Below are positions 15,160 through 56,940 of a stretch of DNA of 64,000 bases, piece after piece. The stretch's first letter is position 1. Each line of letters opens with the position of its first letter. The DNA is from a virus (lineage: Duplodnaviria; Caudoviricetes), in the IMG/VR virus record IMGVR_UViG_3300020365_000001; one strand, 5' to 3'. A program made the translations under genes and the position numbers. Under the pieces are notes generated by a model. That model was given only the letters and a program-made list of their open reading frames with translations. It was not told the origin of the DNA and searched no databases.

Positions 15160-15312
15160 TCATGGACCTTCGTAGGTTTCGTCGTAGTCTAACTCAACAG
15201 GGTCGCATTCGTCAAATCGATACGACTCAACGTCGGAGTAGACTTCTGCTTTCAATGCACTAAGCAGCATCTCTAGGTCAGAGATAATAATCTTTAGTTT
15301 GTCTCGTTCCAT
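15160..15312 (-). CDS. 50-aa acidic conserved cyanophage protein
   Basis: Read manually: MERDKLKIIISDLEMLLSALKAEVYSDVESYRFDECDPVELDYDETYEGP. Confidence 0.7.
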   Translation of the reverse strand: MERDKLKIIISDLEMLLSALKAEVYSDVESYRFDECDPVELDYDETYEGP

Positions 15313-15318
15313 ACGTAT

Positions 15319-15347
15319 AGCATAAGATAAAAAAAGAGAGGTGTCAA
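15319..15347 (-). promoter_or_regulatory. sigma70-type promoter overlapping a terminator
   Basis: TTGACA-17nt-TATGCT; the next ATG is 6 nt past the -10. Confidence 0.6.
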
Positions 15348-15357
15348 GACCTCTCTT
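15329..15357 (-). terminator. Intrinsic terminator after the DUF4278 gene
   Basis: AGAGAGGT-CTTGAC-ACCTCTCT followed by a T-run. Confidence 0.8.
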
Positions 15358-15365
15358 AGTATGAC

Positions 15366-15509
15366 TCAGGATTGAGAAGCGAACTTGCGTTCTACCTTGA
15401 CTCCACGATACATGAGGTCATGGTTGTTACGCTGGTCACGTTCTTGAAGAACCTTTGCCTTGTAACCTTCAGCGTCATACTTGACGCCGCGATAAGTGAT
15501 GGTAGTCAT
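15366..15509 (-). CDS. DUF4278-family peptide (two YRG motifs)
   Basis: Read manually: MTTITYRGVKYDAEGYKAKVLQERDQRNNHDLMYRGVKVERKFASQS; SD AGGAG upstream. Confidence 0.85.
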   Translation of the reverse strand: MTTITYRGVKYDAEGYKAKVLQERDQRNNHDLMYRGVKVERKFASQS

Positions 15510-15543
15510 CAGTCTTACTCCTAAAGTAATTGGATTTTTAGGC

Positions 15544-15784
15544 CCGTTCCTTTAGTCGTTTGCGTCCCAAGGACATTCAGGAGTTGCATCCTGAATAGTC
15601 TCGACTAACTCAACTTTGATTTCATTCTTCAGGTACATATCTTTTTGAACTCTGAGGATGATAGCATCCGCATCTTCGCAAAGTATACCCGAGTAAAGTA
15701 GTAGTTCCGCCATGGGATGAACGGCTCCGTTCCGCGACTTACTTGCGTCCAGGCATGGGATATGAAGTCCCTTCTGGATGAACG
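15544..15784 (-). ncRNA. Tandem glutamine riboswitch (glnA/Downstream-peptide family)
   Basis: Two units CGTTCATCC...GGACGCAA...GGAACG (15727-15784 and 15544-15724) with P1 and P2 pairing; lies upstream of DUF4278. Confidence 0.8.
15552..15713 (-). CDS. 53-aa ORF embedded in the second riboswitch aptamer
   Basis: MAELLLYSGILCEDADAIILRVQKDMYLKNEIKVELVETIQDATPECPWDAND; its start and stop coincide with aptamer elements. Confidence 0.6.
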   Translation of the reverse strand: MAELLLYSGILCEDADAIILRVQKDMYLKNEIKVELVETIQDATPECPWDAND

Positions 15785-15791
15785 TATGGTA

Positions 15792-15819
15792 ATTATACCA
15801 CACTATGTATGTCTGTCAA
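15792..15819 (-). promoter_or_regulatory. sigma70 promoter for the riboswitch/DUF4278 transcript
   Basis: TTGACA-16nt-TATAAT with extended TGn; predicted +1 falls at the 5' end of aptamer 1. Confidence 0.8.
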
Positions 15820-22069: not shown

Positions 22070-22200
22070 TTAGGTATGAGTGCGGGGAACACTAGGTAAG
22101 ATATTCCTTCCTCACCCTCAGAGGAAGGTATTAGAGACTGTTGTTTAGTGTCGCTGTTTAGTCCCGGTGAGGCGACAAGTAGGTGAGGAAAACCTCACAC
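22070..22200 (-). ncRNA. Structured psbA 5' leader (PhotoRC-II-like motif)
   Basis: Hairpins GTGAGG/CCTCAC, GTCGC/GCGAC and CCTTCCTC/GAGGAAGG after AGTCTCTAATA; resembles the cyanophage psbA leader motif. Confidence 0.55.
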
Positions 22201-56223: not shown

Positions 56224-56940
56224 TCAGACTCCCCTCAGTAATCGATTCAGCAATTCTGCTCCACGACCTGCTGCACTTTTCTTCTCAAGATTTTTCTTTT
56301 CTTGAGTAGTCATGTGCTTGTTAGCATCATTCTTTGCCCGGATGTCGTCATCAATACCCTCCGGCATGTTGCTCACATACTTACCCTTCGCCTTGTCATA
56401 ACGACGGACCTCACCTTTACGCAAGGGTTTTTCACCAGAGTCTTTACGATAATCTTTCCAAGACTTGCCATGCTTCATACGCATGTCTTGTTCTTTATTA
56501 CTCTTTTCACTTTTCTCAATTCTTTTCATTGCCTTACGGTCTGAAAGAATACTAGACCGAAGTGCTTCCGACTGGAACCGATCACGGAACTTACGGAGAG
56601 GCATAGATTTGTCACGAAACTCTTTCTTAGATTCGTAACCACTAGGTTTAGATCCATCCTTAGTGGATGAACGACGACCCAAAGACTTCCTTTCAGAAGA
56701 CTGACTCATCTTACCAGGTTTACCGTACTGAGACTTGAACTTCTCATCGATGGTACTTTCTTTCATTTTCTTCTTCTCAGGTAAACCTTTGTGTTTGGTT
56801 TTAGCAAATTTCTTTACGCTGGACACACTGGTGGTGGCGGCAATTTGGGAAACCTTAGGCGACGGCGCTTCCAGTTCCCCTTTTTGAGCCGCTCTAACCA
56901 TCCCGAAGAGTCTTTGTTGGGATCGGGACTTGGCGGGCAT
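56224..56940 (-). CDS. Lys/Arg-rich probable internal head protein
   Basis: MPAKS..QQRLFGMV...FAKTKHKGLPEKK; modules separated by xxE sites. Confidence 0.65.
   Translation of the reverse strand: MPAKSRSQQRLFGMVRAAQKGELEAPSPKVSQIAATTSVSSVKKFAKTKHKGLPEKKKMKESTIDEKFKSQYGKPGKMSQSSERKSLGRRSSTKDGSKPSGYESKKEFRDKSMPLRKFRDRFQSEALRSSILSDRKAMKRIEKSEKSNKEQDMRMKHGKSWKDYRKDSGEKPLRKGEVRRYDKAKGKYVSNMPEGIDDDIRAKNDANKHMTTQEKKNLEKKSAAGRGAELLNRLLRGV

What the first reader, a model, noticed from the sequence alone, without database searches (positions are those of the whole stretch)
15366..15819. Double glutamine riboswitch whose second aptamer encloses a complete 53-codon ORF, upstream of a DUF4278 peptide
Seen on the minus strand. 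A TTGACA/TATAAT promoter starts the RNA at unit 1: CGTTC A TCCAG..CTGGA CGCAAGTAAGTCGCG GAACG. Unit 2 follows: CCGTTC A TCCCA [~140 nt] TGGGA CGCAAACGACTAAAG GAACGG. The large P2 loop of unit 2 is an open frame. Its ATG overlaps the 5' P2 strand (TCCCATG), and its last codons W-D-A-N-D-stop (TGG GAC GCA AAC GAC TAA) are the aptamer's 3' half. Established: glnA/Downstream-peptide motifs are glutamine riboswitches of cyanobacteria, often upstream of YRG-containing DUF4278 peptides that resemble glutamine synthetase inactivating factors. Inference: a ribosome on the internal ORF must unwind P2 and the 3' junction, and ligand-bound folding would hide its start codon. This would couple translation of one peptide to glutamine sensing and to expression of the next, giving a phage nitrogen-sensing circuit with an ORF inside an aptamer.
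Basis: partly seen in the sequence, partly recalled or inferred. Interest (0 to 1): 0.85.

Follow-up and report, generated by a model that had tools for sequence, protein, structure and literature searches.

The report
Gene nested inside double glutamine riboswitch
This ocean cyanophage starts a small operon with a glutamine-sensing RNA made of two sensor cores, and one stem of that RNA closes around a real 53-codon gene, so sensing nitrogen status and translating that gene must compete on one RNA; hundreds of related phages share the layout and I found no description of it.

Summary
On the minus strand, a perfect sigma-70-type promoter (15819-15792) starts an RNA with two glutamine-riboswitch cores. 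A 53-codon ORF (15713-15552) has its AUG in one strand of a stem. Its last five codons and stop are the conserved 3' core sequence. A DUF4278 peptide gene and a terminator follow.

The layout recurs in about 160 viral contigs and in all seven cyanomyovirus isolates examined. The ORF is a real gene: in-frame dN/dS is 0.36, indels come in threes, it matches PHROG 504, and homologs exist outside any aptamer. Its last five codons show no synonymous change, so RNA constrains them.

The "tandem" reading needs revising. AGUCG of the first 3' half pairs with CGACU of the second: G-C, A-U (26 loci) and U-A (3 loci), with no mismatch. That gives two three-way junctions, one inside the other, sharing helix P3. 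The inner core is circularly permuted and holds the gene.

The ORF's stop codon also lies in a covarying helix that pairs next to the DUF4278 ribosome-binding site. Glutamine binding and the direction of control are inferred, not shown.

Rfam thresholds miss the element (20.6 bits against 35). Earlier agents of this scan found the same layout in other phages.

The parts
15792..15819 (-). Sigma-70-type promoter TTGACA-16-TG-TATAAT. The predicted start is about 15785, one base before P1.
   Evidence: 12 of 12 matches, TG extension. Relatives carry either a similar promoter or a T4-late TATAAATA box at this place.
15780..15784 (-). a1: CGUUC, the 5' strand of the outer P1. It is proposed to pair with c2 at 15545-15549.
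   Evidence: Invariant in 110 of 110 aligned loci. The partner is assigned from junction connectivity, not from covariation.
15748..15778 (-). Outer P2 hairpin: UCCAG, a 21-nt loop with an inner GGGA/UCCC stem, then CUGGA.
   Evidence: All four basal pairs covary, for example U-A 104, A-U 4, C-G 2. In some relatives this stem also encloses an ORF.
15740..15747 (-). Outer joiner CGCAAGUA. The Rfam RF01739 consensus here is CGGAAGUA.
   Evidence: Invariant. Aligned to the consensus.
15735..15739 (-). P3 5' strand, AGUCG. It pairs with CGACU at 15554-15558.
   Evidence: 100% paired in 110 sequences, with G-C to A-U (7) and G.U. A dedicated scan gave AAUCG:CGAUU in 26 of 26 and AUUCG:CGAAU in 3 of 3.
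15719..15732 (-). Inner P1' hairpin: GAACG, loop GAGC, CGUUC. The loop holds the only Shine-Dalgarno-like GGAG before the nested ORF.
   Evidence: The linker is always 3-6 nt. The hairpin forms in the minimum-energy fold of 76 of 109 loci and of the window.
15713..15717 (-). Inner P2' 5' strand, UCCCA. Its last base is the A of the ORF's AUG (15713-15711).
   Evidence: Pairs 3-5 covary (C-G 85, U-A 14, U.G 8, A-U 2 at pair 4).
15552..15713 (-). Nested gene of 53 aa (MAELLLYSG...CPWDAND): PHROG 504, a two-Cys helical hairpin of unknown function.
   Evidence: Homologs outside any aptamer.
15565..15569 (-). Inner P2' 3' strand, UGGGA (codons Trp49 and the start of Asp50).
   Evidence: The long-range helix forms in the minimum-energy fold of 97 of 109 loci.
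15559..15564 (-). Inner joiner CGCAAA (codons 50-52).
   Evidence: Only the middle A varies (A, C or U). There is no synonymous change in codons 49-53.
15554..15558 (-). P3 3' strand, CGACU (end of Asn52, Asp53, first base of the stop).
15545..15553 (-). Outer joiner AAAG (the consensus is GAAG) plus c2, GAACG, the 3' strand of the outer P1. The stop codon UAA is 15554-15552.
15518..15526 (-). CUUUAG-GAG. CUUUAG pairs with CUAAAG (15555-15550); AGGAG (15522-15518) is the DUF4278 ribosome-binding site.
   Evidence: The stop codon's middle base covaries with the base before AGGAG: UAA with U 17, with C 0; UGA with C 41, with U 29. The helix is in the minimum-energy fold of 98 of 109 loci.
15366..15509 (-). 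DUF4278 peptide gene of 47 aa with two YRG motifs (IF17-like).
   Evidence: PF14105, 26.8 bits against 25.3; phrog_5049. The downstream gene encodes a peptide with two YRG-type motifs in the 129 of 136 unique loci where it was translated.
15325..15357 (-). Intrinsic terminator: 9-bp stem, 6-nt loop and a T run.

Best explanation
This is a self-contained cyanomyovirus transcription unit: promoter, leader RNA, two small genes, terminator. Its leader is a divergent type-I (glnA-type) glutamine riboswitch built as two three-way junctions, one inside the other.

Outer core:
- P1: the first CGUUC pairs with the last GAACG.
- P2: a short hairpin.
- Joiner CGCAAGUA.
- P3: AGUCG pairs with CGACU.
- Joiner (A/G)AAG.

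Inner core, a circular permutation that uses the same P3:
- P1' is the local hairpin GAACG-GAG(C)-CGUUC.
- P2' (UCCCA:UGGGA) closes around a complete 53-codon gene.
- The gene's AUG lies in the 5' strand of P2'.
- Its last five codons and stop are the P2' 3' strand, a joiner, the P3 strand and the next joiner.

Inferred mechanism:
- Without glutamine, CU(A/G)AAG pairs with CUU(U/C)AG next to the AGGAG of the DUF4278 gene and hinders its translation. CU(A/G)AAG is the end of P3 plus the joiner, and contains the nested gene's stop codon.
- Glutamine stabilises outer P1, P3 and the joiners. That releases the region and turns the IF17-like peptide on, as type-I and type-II glutamine riboswitches do in cyanobacteria.
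- The folded sensor buries the nested gene's AUG and its GGAG.
- A ribosome translating or terminating on the nested gene must melt P2', P3 and outer P1, and also the occluding helix.
- So sensor folding and translation of the nested gene exclude each other, and translation can itself open the downstream start site.

Shown: the anatomy, the pairings, coding selection, and restriction to phages. Inferred: the ligand, the direction of control, and the coupling.
For: Conservation:
- The same halves, spacing and reading frame occur in about 160 of 168 loci.
- The spacing between the halves is a multiple of three in all but four of the 161 loci where the 3' half was located.
- All seven cyanomyovirus isolates examined carry it, six placed in different genera of Kyanoviridae and one (S-SKS1, Llyrvirus) with no family given; 386 phage records match some part of the region by BLAST.

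RNA pairings:
- On 110 sequences the structure is 93.4% paired. Covariation is 0.127 against 0.047 +/- 0.003 in shuffles (0 of 500 reach it), and every slid register scores far lower.
- P3 position 2 is G-C, A-U (26 of 26 loci with AAUCG) or U-A (3 of 3 with AUUCG), with one G.U. No mismatch was seen.
- P2' extensions are subfamily-specific: UCCUAUG/CAUAGGA, UCCUCAU/AUGAGGA, UCUAUG/CAUAGA, and 4 + 8 bp in subfamily B.
- Native P2' duplex energy is -9.68 against -8.22 +/- 0.14 shuffled (0 of 2000). For the non-main subfamilies it is -10.2 against -6.9 +/- 0.39.

Fit to the known family:
- The outer core (CGCAAGUA...P3...GAAGGAACG) fits the RF01739 consensus on both sides of P3. Neither 'tandem unit' does (alignment).
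- The nested fold is lower in energy than the tandem fold in 100 of 109 loci.
- The c1-a2 linker is always 3-6 nt.

Dual coding:
- Codons 49-53 show zero synonymous change, against 0.2-0.8 in most interior codons.
- Subfamily-B genes that stop early at UAG inside P2' keep the untranslated 3' core.
- Homologs outside any aptamer lack the WDAND tail.

A real gene:
- dN/dS is 0.36 in frame against 0.88 and 2.7 out of frame.
- C12 is invariant and C47 nearly so across subfamilies.
- The AlphaFold model has pLDDT 82.
- It matches phrog_504, and 310 clusters at 50% identity match the family profile.

Occluding helix:
- It covaries with the stop codon and is in the minimum-energy fold of 98 of 109 loci.

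Direction of control:
- Both glutamine riboswitch classes are ON switches for DUF4278/IF17 genes. A pairing that blocks the ribosome-binding site is proposed to be melted by ligand (PMC6212724, PMC6698751).
Against: - No experiment shows glutamine binding. The Rfam scores are below the gathering thresholds.
- The P1 strands are invariant and identical in both cores. Covariation therefore cannot tell a1:c2 plus c1:a2 (nested) from a1:c1 plus a2:c2 (tandem). The assignment rests on junction connectivity, fit to the consensus and energies.
- The inner core's joiners (CGCAAA and CG) are far from the consensus, so it may not bind ligand.
- The occluding helix covers only 2 of the 5 Shine-Dalgarno bases. 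In ViennaRNA models the number of unpaired Shine-Dalgarno bases is the same (about 1.8 of 5) in the free and forced-aptamer states.
- In the window's subgroup a second local pairing, CCUAAA:UUUAGG, can also cover the site.
- The forced nested state costs 8.0 kcal/mol on average above the minimum-energy fold (2.1 in the window). Ligand and tertiary contacts would have to pay this.
- The GGAG before the nested gene is missing in some relatives, whose loops read GUA or GAUU. How that gene is initiated is unclear.
- The covariation counts come from related sequences, so independent events are fewer than the counts suggest.
Confidence: 0.6

Rival explanations
1. Two independent tandem aptamers, as the first reader and the literature's 'doublet' count assume. 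Here a1 pairs with c1 and a2 pairs with c2 across the ORF. The AGUCG:CGACU pairing is then a kissing or pseudoknot contact between two separate sensors, giving cooperative or pseudo-cooperative control.
For: - Rfam models align full-length to a1-c1.
- During transcription a1-c1 appears first and could fold on its own.
- The P1 strands are identical, so both registers are possible and may interconvert.
- The tandem-riboswitch survey counts 157 glutamine doublets as pseudo-cooperative (PMC9481103).
Against: - With P3 formed, tandem P1 pairing breaks the canonical three-way-junction connectivity of both units and makes a pseudoknot.
- Neither unit alone carries both consensus joiners. Unit 1 lacks GAAG and unit 2 lacks AAGUA.
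- The tandem fold is higher in energy in 100 of 109 loci.
- The 3-6 nt linker fits a hairpin loop.
Confidence: 0.2
2. Only the first aptamer is functional. The 'second aptamer' halves are kept for the protein (a Trp-Asp-Ala-Asn-Asp tail and its translation start region), not as RNA.
For: Unit 2 gives no covariance-model hit. The WDAND tail is nearly invariant in the protein alignment.
Against: - The last five codons show zero synonymous variation while interior codons vary freely.
- The sequence stays conserved beyond the stop codon.
- Genes that stop early keep the downstream core untranslated.
- Asp53 changes to Glu exactly where the RNA pair changes to U-A.
- Homologs outside any aptamer lack the tail.
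- The tail has low confidence in the structure model.
Confidence: 0.03
3. The insert is a non-translated spacer or a structured RNA domain. Its open frame would be incidental.
For: The Shine-Dalgarno sequence is weak or absent in some relatives. The AUG is buried in a stem.
Against: - dN/dS is 0.36 in frame only.
- Indels come in threes.
- Cys12 is invariant and Cys47 nearly so across subfamilies that differ in nucleotide sequence.
- The family (PHROG 504) also exists as ordinary genes in other phage contigs.
- The structure model is a confident helical hairpin.
Confidence: 0.05
4. The anatomy is the same, but the main control is translational coupling rather than ligand release of the ribosome-binding site. 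DUF4278 is made chiefly when ribosomes finish the nested gene and open the CU(R)AAG:CUU(Y)AG helix. Glutamine binding then acts by shutting the nested gene off (AUG in P2'). Glutamine would lower, not raise, DUF4278 output, or would swap which peptide is made.
For: - The stop codon sits inside the occluding helix in nearly every locus.
- The distance from the stop to the next AUG is about 40 nt, with a strong AGGAG.
- Modelled Shine-Dalgarno accessibility does not differ between the RNA states.
Against: - Both known glutamine riboswitch classes turn DUF4278 genes ON with glutamine (PMC6212724).
- Subfamily-B genes that stop 13 or more nt earlier, inside P2', keep the helix.
Confidence: 0.12

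Closest known systems
Type-I glutamine riboswitch (glnA RNA, Rfam RF01739), for example the gifB (IF17) leader of Synechocystis (Klahn et al. 2018, PMC6212724)
   Same: - P1 is CGUUC:GAACG.
- P2 is a covarying hairpin closed by UCC:GGA.
- Joiners CG(G/C)AAGUA and GAAG.
- A P3 helix sits at the same place in a three-way junction.
- It lies upstream of a DUF4278 (IF17-like) gene.
- A pairing next to the ribosome-binding site competes with the aptamer's 3' part.
   Different: - It scores below the Rfam threshold (20.6 of 35).
- P3 is not a hairpin. It carries a second, circularly permuted core.
- One P2 stem (both, in some relatives) encloses a protein gene that is dual-coded with core nucleotides.
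- It was found only in phages. The five hits among 185,579 species genomes all carry the complete cassette in draft-assembly contigs, four of them labelled MAGs, and two are of cyanomyovirus genome size.
Type-II glutamine riboswitch (Downstream-peptide motif, RF01704) of marine Synechococcus and Prochlorococcus (PMC6698751)
   Same: CGUUCA, CGCA and GGAACGG core words. GGAACG is enclosed by a helix whose 3' strand abuts the start site. The host range matches and the downstream YRG peptides are alike.
   Different: It scores below threshold (19.4 of 33 here, up to 29.4 in relatives). The fold here is a junction, not an H-type pseudoknot. Type II has no nested gene.
Tandem ('doublet') glutamine riboswitches counted in surveys (Weinberg 2010, PMC2864571; Sherlock et al. 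2022, PMC9481103)
   Same: Two glutamine cores lie in one leader. Phage and marine metagenome sequences are probably among those counted.
   Different: Those surveys describe them as separate riboswitches giving pseudo-cooperative control. Here the two cores share a covarying helix and one holds a gene. Neither paper mentions this.
Leader-peptide attenuation and translational-coupling switches (trp and erm leaders), from general knowledge
   Same: A ribosome on a short upstream ORF decides which RNA structure forms and whether the next gene is expressed.
   Different: There the leader peptide is only a sensor, with no ligand aptamer. Here the upstream ORF is a conserved protein family and the competing structure is a metabolite sensor.

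Membership tests
Glutamine riboswitch type I (Rfam RF01739) | Covariance-model score at or above the gathering threshold (35 bits) | tested here: not met
   20.6 bits on 15786-15724; 24-27 bits in 20 relatives. The model can see only the a1-c1 stretch, not the outer core that spans 240 nt.
Glutamine riboswitch type I (Rfam RF01739) | P1 CGUUC:GAACG and conserved joiners CGGAAGUA and GAAG around a three-way junction | tested here: met
   The outer core reads CGUUC-A-P2-CGCAAGUA-P3...P3-AAAG-GAACG (GAAG in most relatives). These are invariant in 110 loci.
Glutamine riboswitch type I (Rfam RF01739) | P2 and P3 helices supported by covariation | tested here: met
   All four P2 pairs covary. P3 is 100% paired with G-C, A-U, U-A and G.U.
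Glutamine riboswitch type I (Rfam RF01739) | Selective binding of L-glutamine | not testable with these tools
   Needs in-line probing or ITC.
Glutamine riboswitch type I (Rfam RF01739) | Location in the 5' leader of a DUF4278 / nitrogen-metabolism gene | tested here: met
   A DUF4278 gene starts 36 nt after c2. In the 129 of 136 unique loci where the downstream gene was translated, it encodes a peptide with two YRG-type motifs.
Glutamine-II riboswitch (Rfam RF01704) | Covariance-model score at or above 33 bits, with the P1-PK-P2 pseudoknot fold | tested here: not met
   19.4 bits here and at most 29.4 in relatives. The second hairpin of that model aligns poorly.
DUF4278 (PF14105), IF17-like peptides | Pfam score at or above the curated cut-off | tested here: met
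   26.8 bits against 25.3 for the 47-aa product of 15509-15366. It has two YRG motifs.
DUF4278 (PF14105), IF17-like peptides | Inhibition of glutamine synthetase | not testable with these tools
   Even the host's short IF17-like peptides are untested (PMC6212724).
PHROG 504 (nested gene) | Full-length profile match | tested here: met
   E-value 3e-22, residues 1-53 on profile positions 1-53. Function unknown.

The most novel reading that the evidence does not exclude
The leader is a single two-input device. Two glutamine-binding cores, one a natural circular permutation of the other, share a helix. Protein genes are written into their stems, using the same nucleotides as codons and as ligand-sensor core. 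Ribosome traffic on the nested gene and intracellular glutamine would then jointly set which of two small phage proteins is made, letting the phage read both nitrogen status and translational capacity of the infected cell before releasing an inhibitor of host glutamine synthetase. This would be the first natural riboswitch aptamer that contains, and is dual-coded with, a functional protein gene.
Probability: 0.35. Interest if true: 0.9.

Novelty: new variant of a known kind. Interest (0 to 1): 0.8.

Why it matters
- Riboswitch aptamers are treated as compact non-coding domains. Here a conserved protein gene sits inside an aptamer stem and shares 18 nucleotides with the sensor core.
- This gives a natural system in which ligand-dependent folding and translation must compete.
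- It suggests that what surveys call tandem glutamine riboswitches may, in phages, be one nested structure that includes a circularly permuted core. It also shows that standard Rfam thresholds miss them.
- The cassette is common in marine cyanomyoviruses, which infect the ocean's dominant primary producers. It precedes IF17-like peptides, so it bears on how phages read and reset host nitrogen metabolism.
- It offers a design principle for synthetic switches, since long inserts are tolerated in P2.

Tried and rejected
- **Rfam at gathering thresholds.** Only PhotoRC-II was found elsewhere in the window, and nothing here.
- **The search for related loci.** I used a DNA pattern instead.
- **Window genome.** No whole genome is held for this window.
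- **Nearest relatives.** The nearest isolates share only short stretches.
- **The search for homologous proteins.** It gave only 5 hits because of its word filter. The exhaustive profile search gave 310 clusters.
- **Fold search.** Searching the nested protein's model against the PDB gave no match with E <= 0.001, only generic helical hairpins.
- **ESM Atlas.** It gave only unnamed viral clusters.
- **P3 variants.** Scans for variants at P3 positions 3 and 4 found none.
- **NtcA box.** Other agents reported a GTA-N8-TAC box in other phages. It is absent from this promoter.
- **Third CGTTCATCC.** The copy at 56665 lies in a coding region and is chance.
- **Papers not held.** Ames & Breaker 2011 and Ren et al. 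2015 are not held. What I say about the type-I 3D fold rests on Rfam's consensus line, on PMC6212724 and PMC6698751, and on general knowledge.
- **Simple occlusion model.** ViennaRNA Shine-Dalgarno accessibility did not differ between the states, so that model is not supported by that measure.
Full report
**1. What is in the window**

Read on the minus strand, the stretch 15819-15325 is a compact transcription unit.
- A 12-of-12 sigma-70-type promoter with a TG extension lies at 15819-15792. It places the start about one base before the first CGUUC.
- Then come CGUUC-A-UCCAG[21 nt]CUGGA-CGCAAGUA-AGUCG-CG-GAACG-GAGC-CGUUC-A-UCCCAUG.
- A 53-codon ORF follows at 15713-15552. It ends UGG GAC GCA AAC GAC UAA, followed by AGGAACGG.
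- The spacer GCCUAAAAAUCCAAUUACUUUAGGAGUAAGACUG leads to a 47-codon DUF4278 gene at 15509-15366 (PF14105, 26.8 bits against 25.3).
- An intrinsic terminator lies at 15357-15334.
- A radical-SAM gene lies upstream and thyX downstream.

The two 3' halves match GGACGCAA-N9-GGAACGG, a pattern never seen in shuffles of the window. CGTTCATCC occurs three times against 0.38 expected, twice here.

Rfam's Glutamine and Glutamine-II models both align full-length to the first unit, but below threshold: 20.6 of 35 and 19.4 of 33 bits.

**2. It is a widespread cyanophage element**

- BLAST of the region finds 386 phage records, all of them Synechococcus or Prochlorococcus phages or other marine cyanophages.
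- All seven cyanomyovirus isolates examined show the same order of parts. Six are placed in different genera of Kyanoviridae; S-SKS1 (Llyrvirus) has no family in its record. The enclosed ORF is already annotated as a hypothetical protein, 'T4-like gene cluster 430'.
- Of these, 168 hold the junction between the two units. In 161 of them CGUUCAUC(C/U)..AUG is followed 153-198 nt later by the second 3' half.
- That spacing is a multiple of three in all but four cases.
- Rfam gives the same sub-threshold hits at the same place in all 20 loci tested. The element is therefore systematically missed at curated thresholds.
- An exact scan of one genome per 185,579 prokaryote species found five copies. 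All five carry the complete cassette and sit in draft-assembly contigs, four of them labelled MAGs. Two contigs are 194 kb and 188 kb, the size of a cyanomyovirus genome. I read the element as phage-specific.

**3. The enclosed ORF is a real gene, and its end is constrained as RNA**

- All enclosed ORFs (49-66 aa) align as one family. Cys12 is invariant and Cys47 nearly so.
- Among 56 distinct 53-codon members, in-frame dN/dS is 0.36. The other two frames give 0.88 and 2.7.
- AlphaFold2 with the family alignment gives a helical hairpin at pLDDT 82, with low-confidence termini.
- The protein matches phrog_504 end to end.
- An exhaustive profile search finds 310 clusters at 50% identity.
- Some of these lack the WDAND tail. 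They sit as ordinary tightly packed genes with no CGUUCA or GGAACG nearby. The protein family therefore exists independently of the aptamer.
- Most interior codons show free synonymous change: 0.2-0.8 of same-residue pairs differ.
- Codons 49-53 show none. They read GAC, GCA, AAC or CAC, GAC, and never GAU, GCN or AAU.
- Subfamily-B genes that stop early at UAG inside the stem (CAUAGGA) keep the untranslated GACGCAAACGACUGAAGGAACGG.

The C-terminal tail is therefore a by-product of an RNA constraint.

**4. The stem really closes around the gene**

- UCCCA:UGGGA is present throughout, and its pairs covary. Pair 4 is C-G 85, U-A 14, U.G 8, A-U 2. Pair 3 includes U-A with UCU...AGA.
- Different gene subfamilies extend the helix with different sequences:
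  - UCCCAUGG/CCAUGGGA
  - UCCUAUG/CAUAGGA
  - UCCUCAU/AUGAGGA
  - UCUAUG/CAUAGA
  - UCCU-A-UGUUAUCA/UGAUAACA-AGGA
- In the last of these, a synonymous Leu codon change covaries with residue changes near the C-terminus.
- Native strand pairs are more stable than shuffled partners. The means are -9.68 against -8.22 +/- 0.14 kcal/mol (0 of 2000 shuffles). For the non-main subfamilies they are -10.2 against -6.9 +/- 0.39.
- The long-range helix appears in the unconstrained minimum-energy fold of 97 of 109 loci and of the window.

**5. Tandem or nested**

Earlier agents of this scan had read the same layout in other phages as two cores 'one inside the other' sharing a helix. I tested that here.

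- AGUCG in the first 3' half is complementary to CGACU in the second.
- In my first data set the rare variants all kept pairing: AAUCG:CGAUU, AGUCG:CGAUU, AGUCG:CGGCU and GGUCG:CGACU.
- A scan aimed at non-G at position 2 returned 33 loci. AAUCG went with CGAUU in 26 of 26 readable cases, and AUUCG with CGAAU in 3 of 3.
- These cases span several gene subfamilies and linker types. In the AUUCG loci the last codon changes from Asp to Glu to keep the pair.
- On 110 aligned sequences this helix is 100% paired. The whole five-helix structure is 93.4% paired, with covariation 0.127 against 0.047 +/- 0.003 in shuffles (0 of 500). All slid registers score far lower.

With this helix in place, the canonical connectivity of a type-I three-way junction is P1, A, P2, CGGAAGUA, P3, GAAG, P1. 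It is met only if the first CGUUC pairs with the last GAACG. This outer core then reads CGCAAGUA...P3...(G/A)AAG-GAACG and matches the Rfam consensus on both sides.

The middle GAACG-GAG(C)-CGUUC must then form a hairpin. That makes an inner core which is a circular permutation: P1' is capped, P3 is open, and P2' holds the gene.

Indirect support:
- The linker is always 3-6 nt.
- The hairpin forms in the minimum-energy fold of 76 of 109 loci.
- The nested fold beats the tandem fold in 100 of 109 loci.

Because both P1 sets are invariant and identical, covariation cannot settle the P1 partners. A tandem register with a kissing contact remains a rival, and the two may interconvert.

**6. The expression platform**

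- The stop codon lies in CU(A/G)AAG, which is the last two bases of P3 plus the joiner.
- This hexamer is complementary to CUU(U/C)AG, which overlaps the first two bases of the AGGAG of the next gene.
- Among unique sequences, UAA goes with U 17 times and with C never. UGA goes with C 41 times and with U 29 times, the latter as G.U.
- The helix is in the minimum-energy fold of 98 of 109 loci and of the window.
- It excludes P3 and the outer joiner.
- Both cyanobacterial glutamine riboswitch classes are ON switches for DUF4278/IF17 genes. The proposed mechanism is ligand-driven release of a pairing that blocks the ribosome-binding site (PMC6212724, PMC6698751).

By analogy I infer that glutamine stabilises outer P1 and P3 and frees the DUF4278 start region.

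Caveats:
- Only two Shine-Dalgarno bases are in the helix.
- Modelled Shine-Dalgarno accessibility is the same in both states.
- In the window's subgroup, CCUAAA can also pair with UUUAGG.

**7. Consequences for the nested gene (inference)**

- In the folded sensor, the gene's AUG is in P2' and the only GGAG is in the P1' loop, so folding should hinder its initiation.
- A ribosome on its last codons covers P3, the joiner and outer P1, and sits in the occluding helix. Translation must therefore unfold the sensor, and could open the DUF4278 start site by coupling; the gap is about 40 nt.
- Which effect dominates, and whether the inner core binds glutamine at all, cannot be decided from sequence.
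- The GGAG is absent in some relatives.

**8. Comparison and novelty**

- The element works like, and is evidently derived from, the type-I glutamine riboswitch. It fails the curated score test but meets the structural features (see the membership table).
- Published surveys note that glutamine riboswitches are often tandem, with 157 doublets counted, and that cyanophages carry glnA RNAs (PMC2864571, PMC9481103, PMC9964418).
- Seven full-text searches found no description of a shared-helix nested architecture, a permuted core, or a gene inside the aptamer.
- Ames & Breaker 2011 and Ren et al. 2015 could not be read, so an earlier remark there cannot be excluded.
- The scan itself has found the same layout in at least 45 other genomes. 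My tests agree with those notes on the nested reading.

I class it as a new variant of a known kind.

Noticed in passing
L190, L208, L113, L189, L214, L073 (about 210 nt upstream of their GCAAGTAA..GGAACGG): In some related phages the outer P2 stem also encloses a complete ORF of 65-68 aa (for example MHGLALLVLMFAEHDASHWELSCNEW...CEAWHIGRK). Its ATG lies in CGTTCATCCAATG. It ends either as Gly-Arg-Lys-stop encoded by GGACGCAAGUAA or at a stop inside the stem. Both stems of the nested sensor can therefore carry genes.
   Followed up: partly
window 22093-22190 (-): PhotoRC-II RNA (RF01717), 52 bits against a threshold of 39. It is the only Rfam hit above threshold in the window and is typical of cyanophage photosynthesis-gene regions.
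   Followed up: no
L001 (S-SSM5), L003 (ACG-2014b), L007 (S-CAM22) versus the window, L002, L004, L005: The cassette's promoter type differs between phages. Here and in S-SKS1, S-SSM4 and S-RIM44 it is sigma-70-like, TTGAC(A/T)...TAT(A/C)AT. In S-SSM5, ACG-2014b and S-CAM22 there is instead a T4-late-type TATAAATA box, which suggests different timing of expression.
   Followed up: no
Many loci, for example L011, L021, L037, L039, L059, L096 (between GGAACGG and the AGGAG of the next gene): An optional insert of about 30 nt, CGGAUC-[covarying GNRA or UUCG hairpin]-GA(G/A)AAGGUUAA, sits between the sensor and the ribosome-binding site. It is absent from the window and its role is unknown.
   Followed up: no
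L008-L171, downstream genes: The controlled gene comes in two main types, both with two YRG motifs. One is the 47-aa MTTITYRGVKY...MYRGIKVERKFASKS type found here (DUF4278). The other is a 55-aa MNTLNLIKKQI..HDAQI..YRGVEY..HGTFCYRGKTYTK type.
   Followed up: partly
L172 (JBJBBP010000001.1, 193,981 bp, 'Synechococcus MAG'), L173 (Nonlabens xiamenensis contig, 188,235 bp), L174-L176: The only five 'cellular genome' hits to the 3' core carry the complete phage cassette. Two contigs are the size of a cyanomyovirus genome, so they look like phage contigs binned or assembled with cellular genomes.
   Followed up: partly
window 15160-15347 (-): A second promoter-like site (TTGACA-17-TATGCT, 10 of 12 matches) overlaps the terminator loop. 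It precedes a 50-aa ORF (15312-15160, phrog_878, unknown function) whose stop overlaps the thyX start.
   Followed up: no
window 56665-56673 (-): A third CGTTCATCC lies inside a long basic, lysine- and arginine-rich coding region. It has no matching 3' half and is a chance match.
   Followed up: yes
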